A stretch of 63,536 bases of DNA, filler included, from Reclinomonas americana ATCC 50394 (taxonomy: Eukaryota), in NCBI GenBank assembly GCA_048213135.1. It is 47 parts of 47 records of this genome, joined end to end, with 100 filler letters (N's around TTAATTAATTAA, not from the genome) between each part and the next. Parts side by side here need not be neighbours in the genome. Positions count along the whole stretch, not along the records: positions 51,511 to 52,759 come from AFZH01025995.1; 46 more parts are not named here. One strand, written 5' to 3'. Of this stretch, positions 1,664-54,107 are shown piece after piece. A model generated the notes under the pieces. That model was given only the letters and a program-made list of their open reading frames with translations. It was not told the origin of the DNA and did not search any database. Positions within the stretch are counted from its first letter, which is position 1. Each line of letters starts with the position of its first letter. Both the position numbers and the translations under genes were made by a program.

Positions 1664-2472
1664 TCACAACCGATCGGGTTGCTGGTTGGCCATGCAGCTC
1701 TTGCACACATTCTCGAATAGTCTCTCGATCTCAGCCGCGCAGTGGATGAACGACTTGTGCCAGAAATCGTACCGCGGGTTCTTGACCAACTCGATAAAGG
1801 TGATGAGCAGACCCCACGGATGTGGCCGGTTCACAATCAGTCGCTCCAGCAACACTCTGCACACACATTCGTCAATAGGGAGGGGAGAGAGGAGAGAGAG
1901 AGAGAGAAAGGGAGGGAGCACGCACCGCGTAATCTGCTCCTGAATGTACTCGTCGATTCTCTCGGCGGATCCAAACAGGTACAGCAGCACGCAGCTAAAG
2001 TAGTGCGTGTGCGAGTTCGGGTAGCGCAGCTGGTTCGCGATTCCGTTCAAGAACAGATAGCGACCTGCAAGAAAGAACACAAAGCCAGTGAGTGGACAAG
2101 CCAGCTGATACACGCACACACTCTTGTAGAAGAGCAACCTTCGGCGTCGAGTTTCTTGCACAGCGTCTCGAAAATGGCCATTGGCGCCGAGTCGACCAAC
2201 GAGTGTCCCTCCACATTCAACAGCTTGATCGCCTCAATGCCGGTGTGGTACACCAGGGCATTGATGAGCGACGTGTTGTACGAGTAGCTGCCTGGTGGAC
2301 GAGCGACGCCATCGCTTAGTCTCAACTTGGCCGGCAGTGTCTCCAGGAAGTCGGCCGGTGTCCGGTGCTCGAGGAACTCGTTCAGCGGCTGCAAGAGGCC
2401 AGCGTTCAACAGCGTGTCCTGGTGCAGTGGCAAGACGCGTGGGTGCTGTCGAATCTCGGGAAGCAGGTCCAC
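1664..2472 (-). CDS. CNOT1: CCR4-NOT subunit 1, C-terminal exons (partial)
   Basis: [23 protein letters not shown] and [30 protein letters not shown] are Not1 C-terminal signatures; interrupted by short introns. Confidence 0.95.
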
Positions 2473-4088: not shown

Positions 4089-5350
4089 ATGTATTAGCTT
4101 TATCAAATGGTGGTGACAATTCACGTGAGAACCTTCAAGTATTATGCAAGACTTGCCATGATCACAAATCCAATAGAGAGGCGGGTGAAAGGTTATTTAA
4201 CATCGACGGTATAACATCAAGTTACAATAAACAAACCAAAGATGTGTTTTCCAATGCCAAATCAGCACTCAAACGATCCTATGACAATAAGAAGAAAGGA
4301 TATAAAAGAATAGGATTGGATGTTAACAAATGCAGAAGAAATATATTACTAAACAATAAAGATAATTTCTGTGTATTTAGTGTTTTGGATGACTTTGTTA
4401 CATTTAATCAAAAGACAATGTCTAATATCCCAGTTGGTTTTTATGTTGTTAAAACTAATAACTTTGTGCCATTTAATGGAGATGGTTTATACAGTCATCC
4501 AATGGTTAAGTATGGACTAGAAGAAAATATTATTAAGTTATCTGATATACAATACTATTTAAAACCTAGTTTACAATTAAATGCAGATTACTTTAAGAAG
4601 TTTATTATGTACATTGTTGAGAATGTAAAAAATGAAGGTGTGTGCAAACTTATGATTAATGCATTCATAGGCACACTTGGAAGCAAAATGACTATCAAGA
4701 CAGAATCCAAACTAACCAAATCATTACAAGATGTTAGTTATCAATATTTTAATAAAGAAGGGTTGATAGTTAGAAAACACAATGTTGATGCTATTACAAA
4801 TAACAAGTTCATGGCAAAAGATAAAGAGTGTAATACTATCTTTGAGGTATCAACAAGAATGATGACAAAGAATGATGATAGCACAACACCAATATTTAAT
4901 CAAATCCTCGATATGGAGGCCATTGAAATACATAAGATGAAGAAGACATTAGAGTCTCTTGGTGGTGAAATTGTACATATTAATACTGATTGTGTTGTGG
5001 CACAATATCCAAAGAAACAACCAGTCGAAAAGAAGTTAATCTCACATAAGAAGAATATTGAAACTGAAATAAATAGAATTATAGAAAATACGTTCTGGGA
5101 TGATGACAGAACCATAAGAAAATATAAAGAAGAACATAAGATCATTGGTCGCTTTAGTGAGAAGAACAATGATTTTTCATTTAAATTGCAAAATGCAGAG
5201 TATGAAATCATTAATGACCCCCTTAATAATGATTTTGATGACTTTGCTAAAAAGCTTATCGCGTTAGGGAAATCTTTCCAAGTGCAAGGAAGAGCAGGCA
5301 CAGGAAAGAGTACTTTAATGCATAGTATCATCAAATACTTGAAAGCAAAA
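4089..5350 (+). CDS. Virus/Polinton-like fusion protein: HNH endonuclease + divergent family B DNA polymerase palm + start of a P-loop helicase (partial at both ends)
   Basis: Frame open from 4091: VLALSNGGDNSRENLQVLCKTCHDHK (HNH), IGLDVNKC (motif A-like), KLMINAFIGTLG (motif B), HINTDCVV (motif C-like), VQGRAGTGKSTL (Walker A); AT-rich and intronless. Confidence 0.8.
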
Positions 5351-5754: not shown

Positions 5755-6666
5755 TCAAATGCGCAGAGGGGTCTCGCCGGCCCGCAGGGCCGCATCCTCG
5801 ATCTGGATCGTGGTGTGGTCGAGCTTGAAATCAACGCGCATGGCCGTCTGAGCGCGTTCCAGGACCGTCCGGGAAAGGCTCATATCAAAGATCGCGAGAT
5901 GGCAGCTCATCGCATCAAGGCCCGATGTGACGGTCCAGACATGAAGGTCGTGTACGGCATCCACGCCCGGGATCGCGGCGAGCCGCTTCTCGAGCAGTTT
6001 GAGGTCGACTTTCGGTGGAGTTCCCTCCATCAGGATATGCACCGCCTGCTTGAGAAGGATCCAGGTGCGCGGCACGATGAACAGTCCGATGCCGGCGCCG
6101 ATGATCGGATCGACCAGCGTCCAGCTTGTCAGAAGCACGACCACCGCCGCGACGATGACGCCAAGCGAGCCGAGCATGTCGCTCAGCACCTCGAAATAGG
6201 CGCCCTTGACATTGATGCTTTCCGATGAGCCCCCCGAGAGCAGCTTCATGCTGATCAGGTTCACGATCAGGCCGATGACGGCGACGACCAGCATCGGCCC
6301 GCCGATGATCTCGGGCGGATTTTGAAAGCGCTTATAGGCCTCGAAAAGGATATAGACGGTGAGAAGCAGCAGCACTACGGCGTTGGTCAAAGCCGAGAGC
6401 ACTTCCGAGCGGACGTAGCCATAGGTCGCTTGTGGCGTCGCGGGCCTCTCCGCAAAGCGGATCGCGATCAATGCCAGCGCCAGACCACCTGCGTCGGTCA
6501 GCATATGCGCCGCGTCGGCGAGGAGCGCGAGGCTCCCTGTCCAGAGCCCGCCGATCACCTCTGCCGCCATGAAGCTTGCCGTCAGCGCGAGCGCCATGGC
6601 CAGACGACGCTTGTGCTTGGCGGCCGCCGTACCCGACGGCGGTTCGGTCGCCTGCAAATCGCTCAT
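5755..6666 (-). CDS. czcD: Cation diffusion facilitator (Co/Zn/Cd efflux)
   Basis: SLALLADAAHMLTD, TYGYVRSEVLSALTN, HDLHVWT and HTTIQIE motifs; GAGGA RBS before the ATG at 6666; proteobacterial-like. Confidence 0.93.
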   Translation of the reverse strand: MSDLQATEPPSGTAAAKHKRRLAMALALTASFMAAEVIGGLWTGSLALLADAAHMLTDAGGLALALIAIRFAERPATPQATYGYVRSEVLSALTNAVVLLLLTVYILFEAYKRFQNPPEIIGGPMLVVAVIGLIVNLISMKLLSGGSSESINVKGAYFEVLSDMLGSLGVIVAAVVVLLTSWTLVDPIIGAGIGLFIVPRTWILLKQAVHILMEGTPPKVDLKLLEKRLAAIPGVDAVHDLHVWTVTSGLDAMSCHLAIFDMSLSRTVLERAQTAMRVDFKLDHTTIQIEDAALRAGETPLRI

Positions 6667-6989
6667 GCAATCTCTTCCTCGTTGGCGTTCCGGTCGCGAC
6701 AACCCAGCGCCNNNNNNNNNNNNNNNNNNNNNNNNNNNNNNNNNNNNNNNNNNNNTTAATTAATTAANNNNNNNNNNNNNNNNNNNNNNNNNNNNNNNNN
6801 NNNNNNNNNNNAACTGCAGGATTTGGCCAGCAAGAAAAAGCGACCGAGCATGTCGGTGCCACCGAGCCCGCCGGCCGTCGACGTGGAGGAGGTGTGTGTG
6901 TCATGCTCTGTGAAGCAGAGCGATGATGTGGACGAGTTTGCTCACCGCGTCGAGTGCAGACCATTCGTGACAAGGGTATGACTGCGCCG

Positions 6990-24814: not shown

Positions 24815-25538
24815 TTATAAAGTGCCGCGTGCGTTCCGTACTACCGGCCAGGAACTCCCTCGTCTTCGCCTTGATGCCCGGTAACGCGGACGTGATGTGC
24901 TCCTCAATCTCTCGCGCCTTGTCTGGATGCCGACGAGTAAACGCGGCGCTTGCTCTGTTTGACGCACACACGGAATGCGAGTGAGTTTGAAGAGGAGGTA
25001 GAGACGAGCGGGGTGGCTGGCACGCAACGCCAGTCGCTTGCGCATGTCGTACGCGTCCTCGCCGTCGGCGTAGTACTTCTTCTCCACGTCCTCCACTCTA
25101 TATGACAAGTGAGAACATGGTGTGCGACTCACAACCCTTCAGTTCTGCGACACCTTCTCTGTACTACCCCCTCCCTCACACGCAACTGGAATCCAAGTGT
25201 CTGCGAGTACAGATGCACTGCAGCGCGGTTCGACTCGCGCACATGCAGCGACACATACAGCGACTCGAAGCCGTCGCGCATCTCGCGCTCCGCATTCGTC
25301 ATCAATGAGCGCGCCAGACCCAGCTTGCGGTGCGAGCGCAGCACCGAGAGTGAGGTGATGTGGCCGTGGGGCGGACTCGCCGACTCCTCGTCCCTGTGAC
25401 GCGAGAGGTGTGAGGAGGAGAAGGAGAGAGAAGGAGCGGAGGAGTGGCGCAACATCTTGGCCAGCACGTAGCCGACAATGCGGCCGTCCTCTTCCTCGGC
25501 CACGTAGCCGAGCTGCGGCCAGGAGAGGGTGTGGTACC
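24807..25538 (-). CDS. NAA10: N-alpha-acetyltransferase 10 (NatA catalytic subunit), partial, multi-exon
   Basis: [52 protein letters not shown] and [14 protein letters not shown]; the exact 3' exon is inferred. Confidence 0.93.
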
Positions 25539-25829
25539 TGGGTGGGAGGATGGGAGGGAGGGGGAGTGAGAGAGAGAAGGAGAGGGGCGAGAGAGGAGAA
25601 GGATGGGAATAATGAAAGGTGAAGGTGACTGCGTGTGTGCCTGAGAGAGAGAGAGAGAGAGAGAGGAGGAGGGAGGAGGAGGAGGAGGAGGAGGTAGGAA
25701 GGAAGGAGGAGGAAGGAGGGAAGGAAGGANNNNNNNNNNNNNNNNNNNNNNNNNNNNNNNNNNNNNNNNNNNNTTAATTAATTAANNNNNNNNNNNNNNN
25801 NNNNNNNNNNNNNNNNNNNNNNNNNNNNN

Positions 25830-32602: not shown

Positions 32603-33855
32603 TCCTCCACTCCGGTGACGAGGCGGTCGGCCTCTCCCGCGCTGACCAGCGAGAAGGTCTCTCCGCGCACCCCGCCGCGGATCGCGGTGGCCGTCAGCTC
32701 ACCGGGGCGGTAGGCGACGGCGAACTCCGCCGTGTAGCGGTTCGCCGCACCTGCGGGAGCAGTGCCGATGACGTCCCCGTCGAGGGCGAGTTCGACGTCG
32801 TCGGCATCGCTGTAGACCTCTACGGCGAGGGGGGCACCCTCATGCCCGGTCCAGGTCCAGCTGCCGATGCTGTCACTCCAGGTCCACGGGCCGGCGTAGA
32901 AGGTCTTGTCCTCGTTCCCCGGTCGGGACACCGCGATGTAGGGCTTCTTCCGGAGTCCGAAGACGATCTCCCGGTAGAACGAGGCCGGACGGCGGCCGCC
33001 GATCAGATCGAGGTCGCCGCACCAGGCGGCGATCCAGGGATAGGTGCCGCTCAGACTCGGAGTCTCTCCCTCCGCGAGGTGATGGGCGCGCCCGATGCCG
33101 ACCTCTCCGAGGTAGTCGAAACCCGTCCACGTGAAGTCGCCGATGACGTGTGGATTCTCGGTGACGAGAGCCCAGTTGTGGTCGATGCGCGTGGGGAACG
33201 TCTCGGTGCCGACGATCACCCGGTTCGGGAACAGCTCCTTGTCCATCGTGTATCGGGCGTCGAGGTAGTTCATGCCGGCGATGTCGAGCACGCCGAAGGA
33301 TTCGGCTGTCGCCTCGGTGACGAGTGCGGACGCACCGATCTGATTCATGAACTCCGCAGGCCCGGCCATGAGGGTGTTGATGCCTGCCCCGTCTCCGTCG
33401 CCCTCGCCGCGTTGCGCGGCGATCTTCTTGATGTCAGCCATGACGGCGAGCATCCCGTTCACGGCGTTCGTGACGTACCGGGTCGGGTCGAGTTCGCGCA
33501 CCTTCTCGGCGAGCGCCCGACCCGTGAGGCCGCCCGCAGGAGAGCCGGTCTCCGGGATCTCGTTGCCGATGGAGTACATGATCACCGACGGATGGTTGAA
33601 GTCCTTCGCCACCATCGCTTCGACGTCCCGTTCCCACCACTCCGCGAAGTGGAGGGAGTAGTCGTGCGGCATCTTGTTCGAGGTCCACATGTCGAACGTC
33701 TCATCCATCACATAGACCCCCAATCGGTCGCAGGCCTCGAGCATGGCGGCGCTCATCGGGTTGTGCGACGAGCGGATCGCATTGAAGCCTGCTTCCTTGA
33801 GGAGCCGCACCCGTCGTTCCTCGGCGTCCGCGAAGGTCGCCGCGCCGAGGATCCC
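32603..33855 (-). CDS. Glycoside hydrolase family 2 (beta-galactosidase-like), partial
   Basis: GFNAIRSSHNP, NHPSVIMYSIGNE, GDFTWTGFDYLGE; actinobacterial codon usage. Confidence 0.93.
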
Positions 33856-39364: not shown

Positions 39365-40225
39365 GCGCACGTAGTGTCGTTGGAGGATCAGGAAGAGCAC
39401 GATGCAGGGGAGTGCCAGCACGACCACCCCGGCCTCGGTCGCGCCGTAGTCGACCACGCCCTGCACCTGCCCGCGGAGGTTCGCGACCGCGAGCGGCAGC
39501 GTCATCCGGTTGGAGTCGTTGATGAGGATCAGCGGGGCCATGAAGTCGTTCCACGCCGTGAGGAACGCGAACAGCCCGACCGTCACGAGGCCCGGCTTGA
39601 CCGCCGGCAGCAGCACCCGCCACAGGGCGCCCCAGCTGGAGCATCCGTCGACCATCGCAGCCTCGTCCATCTCCTTCGGGATCGACTCGAAGGAGATGCG
39701 CATCATGAACATCGAGAACGGCAGCTGGAACATCGTGATCACCAGCGCCACGCCCACCAGCGAGTTCTGCAGGCCGACCGCGTTGAGGATCACGTAGAGC
39801 GGGATCAGCAGCGTCGCGTACGGCACCATGAGGATCGCGAGGGTGAGCAGGAACAGCGCGTTCTTGCCGGGGAACGAGAACCGGGCGAACGCGTAGCCGC
39901 CGAGCAGCGAGATGAACAGGGTGAGAGCGACCGTGAGCACCGAGACGAACAGCGAGTTGCCCAGGTACACCCAGATGCCCGCCTGGTAGTCGGCGAGGGC
40001 GATGTAGTTGCCGAAGCCCCAGCCGTCGGTCTGGCTCGTGCCCGCCACCGGGCTGAGCGATGAGACCCCGGTCCAGATGAGCGGGTAGAGGAAGATCACC
40101 GCGAGGGCGGTCGTGAACACCCAGTAAGGGATGCCGAAGACGATGCGCGCCGCCTTCGAGCGGTACCGCGGGGTCGCGGGCTGGTGGTCCGGGGCGACGA
40201 TCGTGCGCGTCAGTGTCTGGGACAT
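39365..40225 (-). CDS. Carbohydrate ABC transporter permease (MalG-like), 3'-truncated
   Basis: EAA loop SIPKEMDEAAMVDG, GYAFARFSFPGK, FLTAWNDF. Confidence 0.93.
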
Positions 40226-40229
40226 GGCT

Positions 40230-40615
40230 TCAGCTCTCATCCGGACGCCGGAAGGCGCGCAACTGGAAGACGTTGATGACGATGAGCGCGAGCAGCACGA
40301 TCACCGAGAGGGCACCGGCGATGCCGAGGCTGTTCTGACCTTGGAAGGCCACGTTGTAGATGAGCTGCACGACGGTCATGGTGCTGTTGTCGGGGCCGCC
40401 CTTGGTGAGGATGTAGAACTGCTCGAACGCGAGCAGCGACCCGGTCACGCACATCACGGTCGTGAGGGCGAAGGTCGGCTTGAGGAGGGGCACCGTGATG
40501 TAGCGGAACGTCTGCCAGCGGCTCGAGCCGTCGATGCGCGCTGCTTCGTAGATGTCATCCGGGATGCCCTGCGAGGCCCACGAGCATGAGCAGCATGTAG
40601 AAGCCGGCGAAGCGC
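40230..40615 (-). CDS. Carbohydrate ABC transporter permease (MalF-like), 5'-truncated, apparent 1-nt frameshift near 40572
   Basis: GIPDDIYEAARIDG...ITVPLLKPT...LTKGGP; the upstream RFAGFYMLLMLVGL is off by one base. Confidence 0.88.
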
Positions 40616-48298: not shown

Positions 48299-48903
48299 CT
48301 TGCATGCTGCACTGCTCGGTGAAGGCGGCCGGTGGTCGTGTTGACGACTTTTCGCCGTTGCCGACTGCTGGTTTGGTGGCCAAGTACCGGCACAGACGAA
48401 CGAGGTCACAGACGTCAATCGCCAGCAGCTGCTCAACACAGCGGTATTTCTCTGTGTGTTTGTCTCCTGTTGCTCCTCCGGCTGGTGCTGCTGCGGTTGC
48501 TCCTGGTGCAGGTACTCGGTTTCAAGTGGCCACTGATCCGAATGCCCCTCGCCGCGCTGTTCGCCCCAGCTGTGGTGTAGGTGCTTCTTGGTGACCTCAC
48601 ATGGTTGCGGAGCAACTGTTGTCTTGGGTCGTCGTCGGCGAATGGAAGCAGTGGATTCGAACAGCGGCACCACGCCGAGAAGAATGATACTGATTGCTGA
48701 AGGCGAAGCGACGTNNNNNNNNNNNNNNNNNNNNNNNNNNNNNNNNNNNNNNNNNNNNTTAATTAATTAANNNNNNNNNNNNNNNNNNNNNNNNNNNNNN
48801 NNNNNNNNNNNNNNAGACGATCGCGAGCTATGGGCGCGGCTGACCGCGCCCGGCTGCGACTGGCCTGCTGCCTATGACGAACAAGATCGATCAGGAGGAT
48901 TGG

Positions 48904-50061
48904 ATGACGACGCGCCGCACCGTTCTGAAGGGCATGACCGCCGCCGGCGGCCTGCTCGCCGCGCCGCAGCTGCTGCGCGCCCAGGCCAAGACCGAGCTCA
49001 ACGTGATCTGGGTCGGCTGGCCGGAGAGCCACATCACGCCGATGGCGGAGATGTTCATGAAGAACAATCCGACGATCGGCCTGAAGCTCGAACGCATCCC
49101 GTTCAACGAGCTGTTCCCGGCGCTGGAAGTGCGCCTGCAGGCGCGCACGCCCTTGCCCGACATCTTCTTCGCCGACGGGCCGCTCACCGCCTCCTACTCG
49201 ATCCGCAAGCATCTCGCCGAGCTCGACGGCATCCTCGGCAACGATCTTGGCCGCTACACCAAGGCGGCGCTGGCGCAGGGCACCTACAAGGGCAAGCTGA
49301 TGACGCTGCCCTATATCAGCAGCGGCATGGTGCTGTTTCTCAACCGCAAGCACTTCGCCGATGCGGGCGTTGCCCTGCCCGAGCCCGACGTCGCCAAGCG
49401 CTGGACCTGGGAGCAGACGCTCGAAGCCGCCAAGAAGCTGACCGACCCCGCCAAGAACCAGTGGGGCCTGGTCTTCGAGATGGCCGACCGGCCCTATCAG
49501 GCGCTGACCCTGCCGCAGTCGAAGGGCGCGCAGGTGCTGAGCGAGGACGGGCTGACCGCGACGGGCTATGTCGATTCCAAGCCCTTCATCGATGCGATGC
49601 AGTTCTACGCCGACCTGTTCAACAAGCATAAGGTGACGCCGACCGGCGTGTTCGACACCAATCTTGCGCTCGAAATGTTCGCGACCGGCCGCGCTTCGAT
49701 GTATCTGGCGACGACGCCGAGCCTCGCCTCGATCTCGGCGCGCAAGGATCTCGACTGGACCGTGGCGCCGCAGCCCTATTTCGAGGGCGGCAAGGCGGTG
49801 ACGCCGACGGGCAGCTGGCATATCGGCATGAACCCGCGCACCAAGCAGCGCGCCGCGGCCGAGACCTTCATCAAGGCCTTCGCCCAGCCTGAGTATGTCG
49901 AGGCGCAGGCGCGGCTGCGGCCGAACCCGCCGGTGCTGAAATCGGTCTGGGATTCGATGGGCGCCGAGCTCGACACGCCCGGCTGGCGCATCGTGCGCTC
50001 CGAGATGGAGAACACCGCCGTGCCGCGGCCGGCGACGCCGGGCTGGCTCGAATACGAGGAC
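48904..50061 (+). CDS. Sugar ABC transporter substrate-binding protein with Tat signal (3'-truncated)
   Basis: AGGAGG RBS; TRRTVLKG twin-arginine motif; LFLNRKHFADAGV..P..WTWEQ, FATGRASM. Confidence 0.9.
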
Positions 50062-51514
50062 NNNNNNNNNNNNNNNNNNNNNNNNNNNNNNNNNNNNNNN
50101 NNNNNTTAATTAATTAANNNNNNNNNNNNNNNNNNNNNNNNNNNNNNNNNNNNNNNNNNNNCGCTGCAAAGTATATGATACAGAACACCTCTGAGACCGA
50201 AACTCCTGCGACAGCAGTGTTGGTGACGATGCAGGCTGCGAGTAGTACATCAAAGCAAGCGATGACATATGTCTGACTCTGTTCTGTAAGAAGAGGCCGC
50301 TCACCAACGCATACACTGGCGAACAAGGCGCTGCTCAGAAGAACACTAAACTTGCATGCAACTCTTCTTCCCCTTCTTCGTCTTCTTCTCACACCTCTCG
50401 TTCTCTCAACCTGGATCAAGCAGTGGGTGTTGTGCGCCGTATGAAGTGGCGCGTTGCTCCGAGAATACGACAGTGGAGACGTGTCTCTCGAAGGTGCTCC
50501 AGGGCCCTCAAAACTATGAATCTGAGAAGAGTACTCGTGACTGACTCCTCCTCCTTCTTCTCCTCCTGCTTCGTCAGCAGTCTCTCGCTCCTTCTCTCTC
50601 TCTCTCACTCAAGAGCCCTCAGAAACTGATGTCGTCCCTGTTTCTCAAAGATAAGATGAGAACTCGTGACTGACTCTTGCCTTCTTCTTCTCCTCCTCCT
50701 GCTTCGTCTGCAGTCTCCCTCTCTCTCTCTCTCACTGAGTGGGCGATCTGGAGCCATCGAAAGATGCTGTCCAAGTCCACTGCGAGAAGTCGTATCTCCC
50801 TCCTCACTCCCTCGTTCCCACCCACAGCAGCACCATCATGACCGACAAGATACAACAGAGGGGGTGTCAAGTGGTACAATCACACATGCATATGCGTGTG
50901 TGTGTATGTCTGTGTGTCTGCAGAGAGGGCATTCCTCAGAAGCCCATCTCCTCAAGCAGGAACATGTCGAGCCATGGGTTGGGCGCTGGCGCCGGGGCCG
51001 GCGGCGGTGCCTCCTCAGTCACCTGTTCCCCGCAATCGCTTAACAAACAAACAAAGTGACAGCTGGGAGAGAAGAGAGGAGGAGGAGGGGGAGGAGGAGG
51101 AGGAGGAGGAGGAGAAGAAGAAGAAGAAGAAGAAGAACAAGAACAAGAACAAGAAGAAGGAGAGGAGAGAGAGGGAGAGAGAGTGAAGGGAAAGGGAAGA
51201 CAGGAAGAGGGAAGGGAAGACAGAAAGAGAGACGCAGGTATGAAAGAGAAAGACAGATCACGTGCGTGCACATACCGTGGTGTTGATGTTAGTGCCCTCG
51301 CACTGAATGTCGGGAAGAACCATCGCGCACAAGAGATGAACGAGGACGAAGGAGCGAGCGCTGCGAGCTCTGTCTTCTGTCCATCTCAAGAAAATCTTCT
51401 CGCACGCACANNNNNNNNNNNNNNNNNNNNNNNNNNNNNNNNNNNNNNNNNNNNTTAATTAATTAANNNNNNNNNNNNNNNNNNNNNNNNNNNNNNNNNN
51501 NNNNNNNNNNGGGC

Positions 51515-51690
51515 GTGGCAATGCGACCTTGCGGAAAACACACTCAATGAGCAAAGGGAGTGTGCACGAAGAAAGCATCATTCGCGCAAGTCTTACCTGC
51601 GACTGCGACTGCCACTCTACTGCAGAGAAGAGGCCCGCCGCGCACCGATCGAGAGCGGAGTCGTGCGCACAGTGTGACGCACAGCACGAC
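51515..51690 (-). ncRNA. Candidate omegaRNA scaffold downstream of the Fanzor2-like gene
   Basis: Nested complementary arms: GTGGCAGT/ATTGCCAC enclosing GACTTGCG/CGCAAGGTC, GCGAA/TTCGT and GCACACTC/GAGTGTGT; plus a separate GTCGTGC/GCACGAC hairpin. Confidence 0.45.
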
Positions 51691-51739
51691 CATAGCCATA
51701 GTCCACCTGCACTACAGCACCCGCGCGCCCTCCTCGAGC

Positions 51740-52759
51740 TCACCCGTCCTCATCCACCTCGTCCGTCTCCATCTCATCCGTCTCCGAATCCGCTCGCGGC
51801 AACTGAGATGATGGCTTGCGTCGCTTGCGTGCACGTTCATCGTCGACGAGCAAGTGTGATCCGTCACGAAGGTGCTTTCCACTGCGGCGACGTGGCGCTG
51901 GTTCCGCCGGGGGTGCTGCCGGGGGTGGGGGCGGTGGTGGTGGTGACAGCAACCAACCAGCGGGCGCAGGTGGGCTGCGTGGATCGCACCGTACGCAGTG
52001 AGATGACAACTGCGACACATGTAGACTCAGCTGGCCAGTGCGCACGTGCGTGTACTTACCCGACCAATTGCACGGCGCCACTGCTGCGTGGAAAAGGTAA
52101 TGCCACGTGCACTGCTCCTCCTCGCGGTGCTTCTGTTTTCGGCAGCGGTTCCTCAATCGCGAGCGCGATGCAGCAGATGTTCTTGGCTGCTGACCCGTCA
52201 CGCGAAACTGGCACGTTGTGAAGCCTGCAGCGTGTGTTCCCACACCTCAAAACCTTGCGGGTGCCAGGAGCCGGATTAAATGGTTTGCCGCAAGAACAGT
52301 AGCGAGTCGTGAATCCCTCGGTGGGTTGGACAAAGATGATGGGCCGCAATCCGAGGAGAGCGCGCCTTGCGTTGGCCTTGTCGATCTACACGAGACGAAG
52401 AGTGAGTGCTGGGGTGGGACACTTCACACAAAGAGAGAGACAGAGAGAGACACGCACCGCGCGCTTCAGCCTGGTTACAAACTGACCGTGCCCATCGCCG
52501 AGCATAGATCGCGTCGTGGATGACAAGATGACGCGGCGTTTTGTCTCGCTCGTGCCGTTGGCGTAGTCTCGCTGAGTCCAGCGCGCTGCCATGCTGCTCA
52601 CCGATTGACTGAACATGGGGATGATGAGCGTCGTAAACAACGCAATCAGGCTGCACGCGTGACAGTGAATCACAAGGAGACGCACGCGTGCACACCAGCC
52701 AACCGCCACGCCCGCAACTAGTGAATCACAGAGATGTGGAAACTGGTGCGGATGCGCGC
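51740..52759 (-). CDS. Fanzor2 (IS607-type TnpB-like) RuvC nuclease, C-terminal half; exons 52759-52719, 52650-52458, 52385-52060, 51974-51740
   Basis: Spliced product: FHISVIHYLIALFTTLIIPMF...RRVILSSTTRSMLGDGHGQFVTRLKRA...EGFTTRYCSCG...RKVLRCGNTRC...VSRDGSAAKNI; three phase-consistent GT-AG introns. Confidence 0.85.
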
Positions 52760-52859: not shown

Positions 52860-54107
52860 ACTACCATCTTGAATATTGTATCTCCCTGTTGCATTTCTCC
52901 ACACTCCCAATTGTGTACTTGATGGCGACGATGATTCAACAACATTTAAAGCAGTACCAGAGTCATATCTTCTACAGAAACCTGTTATTAATGACCCAGA
53001 CACAAATCTAAATCTAATAAATCCTTTCCATGATGGCGCAGTAAAACCACCACCAGATGCCCATGAATACGTACCACTTGTATATGTTAATGAACCATTA
53101 CTTGGAGTCGTTCCAGCTATAGCAGTTAATATACTGTTTAATGGTTGTTTTTCTGAATCTAATTCATTAATCGCATTTTGAACAGTGACCGCTGATATAT
53201 TGCCGGCTGGAGTATTTGTTATCTGTGATGCTGTATAATCGCCATTAGCACTAGTTATATTTCCGATTCTATTAAAAACAGTCCTTACAGCATCAGTATT
53301 ATCTACTTTATCATAACCTTGAACACCATTAGATATGCACCAATCACCAACGCTAAATGATATTCCAAATTGTGTTCCGCCATTAGTGACAATCCAATAA
53401 TTACCTAGATTTGAACTTCCAGCTGTTGGTAATGCAGGGGAATCATTTTGTGCATCCCATGTTCCTTGATATTTAACATTTCCTAATAATGCATCATTCA
53501 TTTGCACTAATGGGACTTTGGCATTACTGTCTAAAGTGGCATATCCATTCGCTATTGCTTTTTGTGCTGTGACAGTATTATATATTGCGGATGTAACATT
53601 TAAAACATTTGCACCATCATCATCACTAGAACCAAGACCCAAACCAGTTATCTTATTGGTACCCATTGCAACATTTCCACTTAGTGTGCCACCTGTTAAA
53701 CTTAATTTACCATCTAATTGTGATTTATTAACTGCATCATTAGAATTTGTGCCATTTGCCAAAGATGTTATTTTAGCAGATCCCATATTTAAAACTCCAC
53801 TTAATGTGCCACCACTTAAATTTAACTTTGTATCTAATTGTGATTTATTAACTGCATCGCCACTAGAAGATCCATTACTAACATTTGATATGACATTACT
53901 ATTCATATTTAAACCATTTACACTTAATGAATCACTTATCAGAGTTGCTGAACTTCTAACACCTGTATTTGTTGACGCTCCAACGTTATAAATGAAGTTT
54001 CTAAATGAATATAACACACTTGAATTAAATGATATCTTCGCTAATGTTAAATCAGTATTCAAACAACTGCAATCAGATAATGTTATGGCGCCTCCTGTTG
54101 CTGTAAT
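52860..54107 (-). CDS. Viral fibre/tail-fibre-like protein (partial at both ends)
   Basis: AT-rich, intronless; repeats of M...KIT.L..G....DAVNKSQLD.KL.L.GGTLSG, plus NGYATLDSNAKVP, YQGTWDA, ATVQNAINEL-like motifs. Confidence 0.75.

What the first reader, a model, noticed from the sequence alone, without database searches (positions are those of the whole stretch)
51740..52759. Intron-split Fanzor2 (eukaryotic TnpB-like RNA-guided nuclease) hidden from ORF callers
Seen: splicing introns 52718-52651 (GTTGCG..TGCAG), 52457-52386 (GTGCGT..TGTAG) and 52059-51975 (GTAAGT..CGCAG) gives one continuous frame. Each unspliced intron introduces a stop, so the ORF track shows only fragments. The product has H...L...F..LIIPMF, RSML..GHGQF..RLK, EGFTTRYCSCG, C-x4-C and RDGSAAKNI. 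Known: this order matches IS607-TnpB/Fanzor2, where the canonical RuvC-II Glu is replaced by Pro (IIP.F) and an alternative Glu precedes the zinc ribbon (E.[YF]T[ST]..C), followed by the RuvC-III Asp (RD..AA.NI). Both visible catalytic positions are intact. Inference: this is a divergent Fanzor2 resident in the protist genome. Three introns in about 1 kb suggest long residence or domestication. RuvC-I and the N-terminus lie off-contig, so activity cannot be judged.
Basis: partly seen in the sequence, partly recalled or inferred. Interest (0 to 1): 0.9.

Follow-up and report, generated by a model that had tools for sequence, protein, structure and literature searches.

The report
Intron-split Fanzor2-type nuclease gene fragment
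A short contig from an unidentified single-celled eukaryote carries the back half of a very divergent Fanzor2/TnpB-type RNA-guided nuclease gene broken up by host-style short introns, which is a new but incomplete member of an already known family.

Summary
On the minus strand of a 1249-bp contig (51511-52759), removing the three proposed GT..AG introns gives one open frame of 264 codons ending at a stop.

The product is a real but very divergent TnpB/Fanzor C-terminal half. Direct Pfam and NCBIfam hits are sub-threshold. A whole-library search links exon 3 to one metagenomic protein, P0006. P0006 is a clear Cas12f1-like TNB protein, and its relatives are TnpBs. A profile of that family hits exon 2 and exon 3 separately and in order, and nothing else among 1368 six-frame fragments. 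In the PDB the same profile best matches mimivirus Fanzor2.

- Pro sits where canonical TnpB has the RuvC-II Glu.
- The alternative Glu lies six residues before the zinc ribbon.
- The RuvC-III Asp is present.

Introns:
- Intron 2 is well supported.
- Intron 1 is moderately supported.
- Intron 3 and the tail are unsupported.

A Not1 gene in the same window has 69- and 74-nt introns with similar (GTTGCT) or identical (GTGCGT) donor hexamers.

RuvC-I, the guide RNA, the element ends and expression could not be tested. This is a new member of a known kind, of modest interest.

The parts
52719..52759 (-). Exon 1 (partial; cut by the contig end). It encodes the helix with the conserved His that precedes the RuvC-II strand.
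   Evidence: Adds 7.4 bits to the family-profile score when spliced at 52718/52651: 54.7 bits against 47.3 for exons 2+3 only. His and Leu align to family-invariant H18 and L25.
52651..52718 (-). Intron 1, 68 nt, GTTGCG..GTGCAG, phase 2. Moderately supported.
   Evidence: Best of 27 models tested (54.7 bits; read-through 51.0). A similar donor, GTTGCT, is used by a Not1 intron in the same window.
52458..52650 (-). Exon 2: the RuvC-II-equivalent beta strand LIIPMF (52611-52628, with Pro at 52617-52619 in place of the canonical Glu), a 15-residue insertion, and the RS.L..GH..F..RL helix.
   Evidence: hhalign to A1 gives E 1.7e-4, colinear with exon 3. The ORF holding it hits the A1 HMM at E 1.8e-5 among 1368 fragments. 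The family Pro aligns to the ISDra2 canonical Glu.
52386..52457 (-). Intron 2, 72 nt, GTGCGT..GTGTAG, phase 0, CT-rich, with an in-frame TAG at its end. Well supported; an alternative acceptor lies at 52377.
   Evidence: All top models of the 33 tested remove it. Donor 52457 with acceptor 52377 scores 58.4 bits; with 52386 it scores 54.7. Removal restores the family spacing between the RL helix and the alternative Glu. The same GTGCGT donor occurs in a Not1 intron.
52060..52385 (-). Exon 3: the strand with the alternative Glu (52317-52319), the zinc ribbon (Cys codons between 52227 and 52298, arranged C-x-C ... C-x4-C), and the RuvC-III motif RDGSAAKNI (52176-52202, with Asp at 52197-52199).
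   Evidence: PF07282, E 0.017; guided_TnpB, E 0.068, at the profile's C-terminal end. P0006, E 5.7e-4; hhalign 94%, E 1.3e-7. E 6.3e-8; the fold of this exon matches Cas12/TnpB/Fanzor chains, but weakly.
51975..52059 (-). Putative intron 3, 85 nt, GTAAGT..CACGCAG. Not supported by homology.
   Evidence: Only the splice-site consensus and an open downstream frame support it. Alternatives are no intron, with a stop at the TAA inside GTAAGT, or an acceptor at 52010 that leads into another open frame with GC3 0.78 against 0.56.
51740..51974 (-). Putative exon 4: a Pro-rich, then basic (RARKRRKP, 51812-51835), then acidic tail, with the stop at 51740-51742.
Evidence: There is no family match. The nuclear-localisation reading of the basic patch is inference.
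51511..51739 (-). 3' flank to the contig end. This is the place where a guide RNA or element end would be expected; nothing was detected.
   Evidence: Rfam gave only a chance hit (E 0.57) elsewhere on the contig (51876-51968, + strand) and nothing in this flank. The RNA fold of 51511-51810 has z = +1.57.

Best explanation
The contig holds the 3' half of a gene for a Fanzor2-type protein. Fanzors are eukaryotic members of the TnpB family of RNA-guided RuvC nucleases. This one belongs to the subgroup whose catalytic glutamate is moved from the usual RuvC-II strand to a position six residues before the zinc ribbon. The gene sits in the genome of the unidentified eukaryote that makes up most of this mixed assembly. 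It is interrupted by at least two short spliceosomal introns of the host's own type. The visible part runs from the helix before the RuvC-II strand through the zinc ribbon to the RuvC-III aspartate. If the missing N-terminal half carries the RuvC-I aspartate and the RNA/DNA-binding domains, the protein would bind a guide RNA transcribed from near its own 3' end and cut matching double-stranded DNA next to a short target-adjacent motif, as shown for mimivirus Fanzor2. Shown here: homology, motif states, intron plausibility and eukaryotic context. Inferred: nuclease activity, guide RNA, transposon association, nuclear import, and whether the copy is still functional. The intact frame and the retained Glu and Asp favour a coding gene; the very long branch and the altered zinc knuckle leave decay or a change of function open.
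For: Splicing gives 264 codons in one frame.

Homology:
- Exon 3 alone finds PF07282 at E 0.017 and NF040570 guided_TnpB at E 0.068, at profile positions 346-386 of 389.
- Exon 3 finds P0006 at E 5.7e-4 in a library of 1.84 billion proteins. It is the only single-stretch hit of the 8 returned.
- P0006 carries PF07282 at 4.3e-15. All 6 of its longer relatives carry TnpB Pfam domains.
- The spliced product against P0006 scores 58.5 bits, E 1e-15, spanning exons 1-3. Against family profile A1 it scores 52.9 bits.
- Exon 2 was not used to find P0006. It hits the profile on its own and in colinear order.
- Only these 2 of 1368 six-frame fragments of the window hit the profile.

Family identity:
- A1's best PDB match is 9b0l, mimivirus L79 Fanzor2, at 6.4e-59, against 1e-22 for ISDra2 TnpB.
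- The family Pro aligns to the ISDra2 canonical Glu. The family Glu aligns to ApmFz2 E467, whose mutation was tested in PMC10530073 (passages).
- The candidate keeps 18 of 27 family-invariant columns, including the Pro, the alternative Glu and the RuvC-III Asp.
- Its Glu lies six residues before the first Cys, as in the published definition (PMC10711439, passages).
- In the tree the candidate joins P0006/P0136 (SH-aLRT 95) inside a 51-row alternative-Glu clade (support 96) that also holds giant-virus MAG contigs and cyanobacterial TnpBs.
- In the Atlas, 18 of 30 feature hits belong to the PF07282 set, with a top score of 0.94.
- The fold of exon 3 gives only Cas12/TnpB/Fanzor chains in the top 12 Foldseek PDB rows, including 9b0l at rank 2.

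Eukaryotic context:
- The Not1 gene at 1682-2469 has introns of 74 nt (GTTGCT..TTGCAG) and 69 nt (GTGCGT..GTGCAG). The candidate's introns are 68 nt (GTTGCG) and 72 nt (GTGCGT).
Against: - No direct match reaches a curated threshold: Pfam gives 15.7 bits against a cut-off of 26.3, and NCBIfam gives 12.4 against 100.
- Exon 3 found no longer relative by word search (0 of 404 candidates). It found no true PDB relative by sequence.
- Exon 2 against P0006 by BLASTP alone is not significant (E 2.0).
- Foldseek E-values are all above 0.001 (best 0.22 in the PDB, 0.049 in BFVD). The model is only pLDDT 67, and it was built from an alignment of TnpB relatives, so it is not independent evidence.
- The candidate's tree branch is 1.08 against a median of 0.15.
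- 9 of 27 invariant columns differ, including the second Cys of the first knuckle (shifted, C-x-C) and the SHY motif.
- GC3 of exon 3 is 0.62, against about 0.8 in Not1 exons.
- Intron 1 beats read-through by only 3.7 bits. Intron 3 has no support beyond its consensus splice sites.
- The alternative-Glu clade also contains bacterial (cyanobacterial) TnpBs. The label Fanzor therefore rests on the introns and the context, and the assembly also contains bacterial contigs.
- RuvC-I, the guide RNA, the element ends and expression are untested.
Confidence: 0.8

Rival explanations
1. Same origin, but a decaying relic. This would be a Fanzor2-type gene that entered the eukaryote long ago, gained introns, and is no longer under selection as a nuclease (a pseudogene or dead transposon copy). 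This rival differs from the best explanation only in functional state.
For: The end branch is very long, 1.08 against a median of 0.15. 9 of 27 family-invariant columns are changed, including a shifted zinc-binding Cys and loss of the SHY motif. GC3 of exon 3 is 0.62 against about 0.8 for the host Not1 exons. No second copy lies in the window. No close relative was found in a metagenome scan.
Against: After splicing, exons 1-3 form 186 codons with no stop or frameshift. The alternative Glu, the RuvC-III Asp, three aligned Cys and 18 of 27 invariant columns are kept. Splice sites are intact.
Confidence: 0.3
2. A giant-virus copy rather than a cellular transposon. The contig would come from an integrated or co-assembled nucleocytoplasmic large DNA virus of the protist, and such viruses commonly carry Fanzor2 genes.
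For: The nearest subclade in the tree holds giant-virus MAG contigs L004-L006 and other viral contigs (support 86, not starred). Most named BFVD fold rows at the top are giant-virus 'transposases' or TnpB-like proteins.
Against: The introns resemble those of a host housekeeping gene in donor hexamer, length and CT-richness. GC of 0.60 is within the range of the eukaryote-like contigs. No viral hallmark gene lies on the 1.25-kb contig. Direct similarity to viral copies is weak, with a best phmmer E of 1.5e-4 among 302 sequences.
Confidence: 0.1
3. A bacterial or phage TnpB pseudogene on a contaminant contig, in which the 'introns' are chance insertions that happen to start with GT and end with AG.
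For: The window contains bacterial-type contigs: SBP_bac_1, BPD_transp_1, GH2 and Cation_efflux ORFs that fill whole contigs. The clade includes cyanobacterial and other bacterial MAG TnpBs.
Against: Both homology-tested inserts have GT..AG ends, lengths of 68-72 nt and donor hexamers similar or identical to two introns of a eukaryotic Not1 gene in the same window. Removing them restores frame and family spacing exactly. The bacterial-type contigs have GC 0.63-0.68 and ORFs above 310 aa, unlike this contig.
Confidence: 0.05
4. Chance resemblance: a Cys-rich eukaryotic ORF that merely mimics TnpB motifs.
For: 7 of the 8 library hits of exon 3 were unrelated Cys-containing repeat proteins. The direct family hits are sub-threshold.
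Against: Two separate exons hit the same family profile in order, and nothing else in 1368 fragments does. The match covers about 145 residues with all motif states in register. The Atlas and fold searches point to the same family.
Confidence: 0.03

Closest known systems
Fanzor2 of Acanthamoeba polyphaga mimivirus (ApmFz2 / L79; PDB 9b0l)
   Same: It is the best solved relative of the bridging family profile (6.4e-59). It has the same alternative Glu before the zinc ribbon (E467), a non-Glu residue at the canonical RuvC-II position, and the same order of helix, strand, zinc ribbon and RD..AA.NI. It ranks second for the exon 3 fold (36% identity over 59 columns).
   Different: ApmFz2 has Gly where the candidate and its nearest family have Pro. 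ApmFz2 is reported as intron-less (passage in PMC10530073). The candidate has a C-x-C first knuckle, a 15-residue insertion after the RuvC-II strand and possibly a long tail. Direct sequence similarity is too low for phmmer to find it in the PDB.
Metagenomic protein cluster P0006/P0135/P0136 ('putative transposase', JGI/IMG and Logan contigs up to 2.3 kb)
   Same: It is the only close relative found: 42% identity over 62 residues for exon 3, and 32% over 149 columns for the spliced product. It shares the P/E/D state and the C-x4-C second knuckle. It is sister to the candidate in the tree (SH-aLRT 95).
   Different: P0006 keeps C-x-x-C in the first knuckle and the SHY motif, and it has a short branch (0.23). 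Its organism and gene structure are unknown.
Cyanobacterial 'pro-Fanzor' IS607-type TnpBs with DPG and alternative Glu (Yoon et al. 2023, PMC10711439)
   Same: They share the alternative-Glu clade (16 cyanobacterial rows inside the 51-row clade) and the E-x6-C arrangement.
   Different: They are prokaryotic and on bacterial contigs, so presumably intron-less (their gene structure was not examined here). The published regular expression (CxxC, x12-18, CxxC, x4-8, D) is not matched in three spacings by the candidate (C-x-C, C-x4-C, 9 residues to Asp; read).
Canonical TnpB (ISDra2, PDB 8bf8/8h1j) and Cas12f
   Same: They share the superfamily: a RuvC fold split by a zinc ribbon, and a RuvC-III Asp in D.NAA.NI.
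   Different: In these proteins the Glu sits on the RuvC-II strand, where the candidate has Pro, and they have Pro where the candidate has its Glu.
Intron-containing Fanzors of eukaryotes (e.g. Chlamydomonas CrFNuc, Fanzor1c; Jiang et al. 2023, PMC10530073)
   Same: These are TnpB homologues that acquired host introns and nuclear localisation signals, with intron densities up to about 9.6 per kb reported (passages).
   Different: That example is Fanzor1. The candidate's relatives are Fanzor2/TnpB-like. No Fanzor1 chain is among the 26 PDB sequence hits of the family profile.

Membership tests
TnpB/Fanzor/Cas12 superfamily | Significant sequence-profile match to the RuvC-II to RuvC-III region, including the TNB zinc ribbon | tested here: met
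   Via the bridging family A1: 52.9 bits for the spliced product. Exon 3 gives E 6.3e-8 and exon 2 gives E 1.8e-5 among 1368 fragments. hhalign gives 94%.
TnpB/Fanzor/Cas12 superfamily | Reaches the curated Pfam (PF07282) or NCBIfam (NF040570) threshold directly | tested here: not met
   15.7 bits against 26.3, and 12.4 bits against 100, for exon 3 alone. The spliced product could not be submitted to these libraries.
TnpB/Fanzor/Cas12 superfamily | RuvC-III Asp in the RD..AA.NI motif | tested here: met
   The Asp at 52197-52199 aligns to the invariant D125 of the family.
TnpB/Fanzor/Cas12 superfamily | Four-Cys zinc ribbon (CxxC ... CxxC) between RuvC-II and RuvC-III | tested here: inconclusive
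   Four Cys are present, but as C-x-C ... C-x4-C. Three align to invariant Cys columns and the fourth is shifted by one. Metal binding was not tested.
TnpB/Fanzor/Cas12 superfamily | RuvC-I Asp and the N-terminal WED/REC domains | not testable with these tools
   The contig ends at 52759, no genome is held, and no other fragment in the window matches.
TnpB/Fanzor/Cas12 superfamily | Guide RNA (omega/fRNA) encoded at or beyond the 3' end | tested here: inconclusive
   There is no Rfam match of note. The 3' 300 nt fold no better than shuffles, z = +1.57. No relatives were available for covariation.
Fanzor (alternative-Glu subgroup, Fanzor2-like) | Canonical RuvC-II Glu absent and an alternative Glu six residues before the first zinc-ribbon Cys | tested here: met
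   Pro sits at the position aligned to the ISDra2 Glu. Glu sits at the position aligned to ApmFz2 E467, followed by six residues and then Cys (definition from PMC10711439).
Fanzor (alternative-Glu subgroup, Fanzor2-like) | DPG motif at RuvC-I | not testable with these tools
   Off-contig.
Fanzor (alternative-Glu subgroup, Fanzor2-like) | Encoded in a eukaryote or a eukaryotic virus | tested here: met
   Inferred from two homology-supported GT..AG introns. They resemble introns of a Not1 gene in the same window in donor hexamer (similar or identical) and in size. No transcript evidence is available.
Fanzor (alternative-Glu subgroup, Fanzor2-like) | Falls phylogenetically with Fanzor2 rather than with canonical TnpB or Fanzor1 | tested here: inconclusive
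   It lies inside the alternative-Glu clade (support 96), separate from 52 canonical-Glu rows. That clade mixes giant-virus, metagenomic and cyanobacterial rows. No named cellular Fanzor2 or Fanzor1 reference rows were in the tree, the alignment has 132 columns, and the candidate's branch is long.
Fanzor (alternative-Glu subgroup, Fanzor2-like) | Association with a transposon (IS607-type serine recombinase or another transposase, terminal repeats) | not testable with these tools
   Only 1249 bp are available. Only short 11-13-nt repeats were found.

The most novel reading that the evidence does not exclude
The gene is not a mobile-element passenger any more. It would be a long-resident, host-domesticated descendant of Fanzor2 in a poorly sampled protist lineage. 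On this reading it is kept as a spliced host gene and evolves fast, with a remodelled zinc knuckle (C-x-C), an insertion next to the active-site strand, and a new nuclear-targeted tail. That would make it an exapted RNA-guided nuclease or RNA-guided DNA binder with a cellular role.
Probability: 0.12. Interest if true: 0.6.

Novelty: new member of a known kind. Interest (0 to 1): 0.3.

Why it matters
Fanzors are the eukaryotic branch of the RNA-guided TnpB/Cas12 nucleases and are being developed as compact genome editors. A very divergent lineage with host-type introns adds a data point on how deeply these genes have settled into protist genomes. It also shows that prokaryote-style ORF calling misses them.

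Intron-bearing Fanzors, the moved glutamate and nuclear signals are all published already (PMC10530073, PMC10711439). Only half of this gene is present, on a 1.25-kb contig of a mixed assembly. The finding is therefore a correct annotation and a lead for re-assembly. It does not add a new kind of system.

Tried and rejected
- **Own genome and earlier findings.** A whole-genome search of the window's own assembly found no genome held.
- **Sequence searches with exon 3.**
  - The word-based homologue search among longer proteins gave 0 of 404 candidates.
  - PDB phmmer gave only two designed repeat proteins, which are chance hits.
  - PHROGs gave only an HNH family at E 0.17, which is noise.
- **Exon 2 alone.** Pfam and NCBIfam gave nothing. 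BLASTP against P0006 gave E 2.0.
- **Repeat-protein hits.** Seven of the eight representative-library hits were multi-stretch Cys-containing repeat proteins without TnpB domains. I set them aside as chance matches to the 'KVLRCGN..C' stretch.
- **Sequencing runs.** None was listed and no RNA holder was listed, so junction reads could not be examined and read laying was not used.
- **Metagenome scan with exon 3.** It returned three loci with 14-residue matches only. They were not followed.
- **RNA searches.** Rfam gave one sub-threshold hit, a GRIK4 3' UTR element at E 0.57 on the opposite strand, which I treated as chance. The RNA fold of the 3' 300 nt gave z = +1.57.
- **Alternative frames.** Pfam on five alternative-frame ORFs of the contig (both strands) and on the putative exon-4 tail found no family, apart from a DUF4223 match at E 0.28.
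- **Fold searches.** No match reached E 0.001 or better in the PDB or BFVD. The best VIA Z was 6.1, which that tool's own note calls middling.
- **Lineage.** The Not1 search was meant to place the eukaryote. It gave 63-66% identity to plants, animals and algae alike, so the lineage stays unresolved.
- **Folding the spliced protein.** The full spliced protein was neither folded nor scanned against Pfam, because joined sequences cannot be handed to those tools. Exon 3 alone was folded instead.
- **A hidden fourth intron.** I considered one inside the 15-residue insertion of exon 2. No GT..AG model there improved the score.
- **Published catalogues.** I did not open the supplementary Fanzor catalogues of the two papers. 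I therefore cannot say whether this gene or organism is already listed.
Full report
**What the window is.** The 63,536-base window is not one locus. It is 47 contigs of about 1.25 kb, sorted by length and joined by N/TTAATTAATTAA spacers. The finding occupies one of them, 51511-52759 (1249 bp, GC 0.60), on the minus strand. No whole genome is held for it.

The assembly is mixed. Some contigs are filled end to end by bacterial-type ORFs with GC 0.63-0.68: solute-binding protein, ABC permease, glycosyl hydrolase 2 and a cation-efflux protein. Two contigs are AT-rich. Others are eukaryotic, for example a CCR4-Not Not1 C-terminal region at 1682-2469.

**The observation.** The three proposed introns have exactly the stated ends and lengths of 68, 72 and 85 nt. 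Joining the four exons gives 795 nt, which is 264 codons and a terminal stop at 51740-51742. Left unspliced, each intron puts a stop in the upstream exon's frame. The exon 2 frame is also open backwards through intron 1 to the contig end. All quoted motifs are present.

**Is it a TnpB/Fanzor relative?**

Direct evidence is weak but consistent.
- Exon 3 (109 aa) hits Pfam PF07282 (Cas12f1-like TNB) at E 0.017, 15.7 bits, below the 26.3 cut-off.
- It hits NCBIfam guided_TnpB at E 0.068, at the very C-terminal end of that profile.
- PHROGs, PDB phmmer and a word-based search among longer proteins gave nothing real.

The full HMMER scan of 1.84 billion representatives returned 8 hits at E 0.001 or better. 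Seven have 5-9 matched stretches. They are Cys-containing repeat proteins with no TnpB domain, so they are chance matches multiplied by repeats. The eighth, P0006 (151 aa, one stretch, E 5.7e-4), carries PF07282 at 4.3e-15.

P0006 works as a bridge to the family.
- Its six longer relatives all carry TnpB domains: PF07282 in 6 of 6, and PF01385 and PF12323 in 3 each.
- The in-silico spliced product aligns to P0006 across exons 1-3 (58.5 bits, E 1e-15, 32% over 149 columns). Exon 3 alone gives 41.6 bits.
- A profile of the seven family proteins (A1) scores the spliced product at 52.9 bits over profile positions 429-543 of 561.

Exon 2 played no part in finding P0006, yet it matches the profile just upstream of where exon 3 matches (hhalign E 1.7e-4 and 1.3e-7). 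As a control I ran the profile over all 1368 stop-to-stop fragments of 25 aa or more in the window. Only the two ORFs holding exon 2 and exon 3 scored (E 1.8e-5 and 6.3e-8), and the next best was E 0.54.

Independent leads agree.
- In the protein atlas, 18 of 30 feature hits belong to the PF07282 set, with a top score of 0.94.
- An AlphaFold model of exon 3 (pLDDT 67, built on a TnpB alignment and so not independent) gave no Foldseek match at E 0.001 or better.
- However, the top 12 PDB rows are all Cas12, Cas12f, TnpB-like or Fanzor chains, with mimivirus Fanzor2 at rank 2.
- All 12 VIA-align rows listed, of the 14 chains with Z 2 or more, are of that superfamily, with a best Z of 6.1.
- The named top BFVD rows are mostly giant-virus TnpB-like 'transposases'.

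I take homology as established.

**Which kind of TnpB?** The A1 profile's best solved relative is PDB 9b0l, mimivirus 'TnpB-like protein L79' (Fanzor2 ternary complex), at 6.4e-59. ISDra2 TnpB scores about 1e-22. In the printed alignments:
- the family's invariant Pro (LLPxF) lies opposite the catalytic Glu of ISDra2's RuvC-II strand;
- the family's invariant Glu (…E-x6-C…) lies opposite E467 of the mimivirus protein.

E467 is the alternative glutamate that Jiang et al. mutated (PMC10530073, passages read). Yoon et al. define Fanzors and their 'pro-Fanzor' TnpB relatives by a DPG motif at RuvC-I plus a Glu six residues before the zinc finger (PMC10711439, passages read).

The candidate has Pro at 52617-52619, Glu at 52317-52319 followed by six residues and then Cys, and the RuvC-III Asp at 52197-52199. 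It keeps 18 of the 27 family-invariant columns it covers.

- The first zinc knuckle is C-x-C, not C-x-x-C, so the second Cys is shifted by one.
- The SHY motif is changed.
- 15 extra residues follow the RuvC-II strand.
- The spacing from the last Cys to the Asp is 9 residues, so the published regular expression would miss it.

**Tree.** I collected relatives from viral contigs (80 loci) and from prokaryote genomes (27 loci, mostly filamentous cyanobacteria). Of 116 possible rows, 111 spanned the region. Five were dropped for incomplete coverage, among them L066, L108 and L110.

The motif states among the 111 rows were P/E/D in 47 (including the candidate), G/E/D in 12, and a canonical Glu in 52. 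In a quick maximum-likelihood tree on 132 columns:
- the candidate joins P0006/P0136 (SH-aLRT 95);
- that group lies inside a 51-row alternative-Glu clade (support 96) with giant-virus MAG contigs, metagenomic proteins and the cyanobacterial TnpBs;
- the 52 canonical-Glu rows form the other side.

The candidate's end branch is 1.08 against a median of 0.15, so its exact place is unsure. No named cellular Fanzor2 or Fanzor1 sequences were in the tree. The tree therefore shows 'alternative-Glu, Fanzor2/pro-Fanzor group'. It does not show Fanzor2 in the strict sense.

**Are the introns real, and is the host a eukaryote?** No RNA data could be had (see Tried and rejected). I used two indirect tests.

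First, I scored alternative gene models with the family profile.
- **Intron 1.** Read-through scored 51.0 and exons 2+3 alone scored 47.3. It is favoured, but only by 3.7 bits.
- **Intron 2.** All top models of the 33 tested remove the insert. An acceptor 9 nt further on (52377) scores 58.4 against 54.7 for 52386. Removal restores exactly the family's spacing between the RL helix and the alternative Glu.
- **Intron 3.** It lies beyond all homology.

Second, I used a host control. Aligning Not1 proteins to contig 1365-2624 reveals two introns. One is 74 nt (2138-2065, GTTGCT..TTGCAG) and the other is 69 nt (1925-1857, GTGCGT..GTGCAG, CT-rich). The candidate's intron 1 (GTTGCG, 68 nt) and intron 2 (GTGCGT, 72 nt, CT-rich) are of the same type.

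This is good evidence that the contig belongs to the same eukaryote and not to the bacterial fraction. The eukaryote's lineage could not be resolved, because Not1 is 63-66% identical to very different eukaryotes.

**How it most likely works.** By homology, the complete protein would be an RNA-guided double-strand DNA endonuclease. A RuvC active site would be assembled from an N-terminal Asp (not visible), the relocated Glu and the C-terminal Asp, with the zinc ribbon inserted between them. The guide RNA would be encoded at the 3' end of the gene.

Only the last two catalytic residues and the ribbon are shown here. I found no sign of a structured RNA in the 3' 300 nt (z = +1.57) and no Rfam family. 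Neither result excludes a guide RNA.

The intact 186-codon frame across exons 1-3 and the retained catalytic residues favour a gene that is, or recently was, under selection. The long branch, the altered knuckle and the weaker codon bias (GC3 0.62-0.75 against about 0.8 for Not1) leave decay or a change of function open.

**Comparison with what is known, and verdict.** Fanzors with host introns, nuclear signals and the relocated glutamate are published. This is a new, very divergent and incomplete member of that known kind. It has one close relative among the libraries searched. I did not open the supplementary catalogues of those papers, so I cannot say whether this gene is already listed.

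Its interest score is not. I put interest at 0.3.

Noticed in passing
window 52720-52730 and 52664-52674: An exact 11-nt direct repeat (TGTGATTCACT on the minus strand) ends exon 1 and recurs inside intron 1, 13 nt before the acceptor. Both copies encode Val-Ile-His in their local frames. It could be a trace of how the intron arose, or it could be chance: about 0.03 is expected at this distance by my rough estimate.
   Followed up: partly
whole window: The window is 47 length-sorted contigs of about 1.25 kb joined by N/TTAATTAATTAA spacers. Neighbouring 'genes' are not physically linked, so any context argument across spacers is void.
   Followed up: yes
window 5758-6711, 32605-33855, 39365-40300, 48844-50061: Contigs with GC 0.63-0.67 are filled by bacterial-type ORFs (cation efflux, glycosyl hydrolase 2, ABC permease, extracellular solute-binding protein). 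The assembly therefore contains bacterial DNA beside the eukaryote.
   Followed up: partly
window 4091-5350 and 52860-54107: Two AT-rich contigs (GC 0.31 and 0.35) are each one open frame from end to end. One has an HNH endonuclease motif. The other is a Gly/Ser/Asn-rich fibre-like protein with a YadA-stalk match. They are probably phage, bacterial or viral contaminants, and they are unrelated to the finding although one is adjacent to it in the window.
   Followed up: no
window 1682-2469 (minus strand): This is the C-terminal region of a CCR4-Not Not1 gene with two short introns (2138-2065, 74 nt; 1925-1857, 69 nt, CT-rich). It gives a sample of this eukaryote's splice signals. Identity is at most 66% to any protein found, so the lineage is poorly sampled.
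   Followed up: yes
loci L085-L110 (genome contigs): Prokaryotic relatives of the bridging family are concentrated in filamentous cyanobacteria (Moorena, Calothrix, Nostocaceae, Rhizonema, Mastigocoleus, Caldora). This agrees with the published 'pro-Fanzor' distribution. A few sit in MAGs labelled Verrucomicrobiales, Bacteroidetes or Proteobacteria.
   Followed up: partly
window 25132-25728 (minus strand): A GNAT acetyltransferase ORF lies on a GC 0.59 contig. Its origin, eukaryote or bacterium, was not examined.
   Followed up: no
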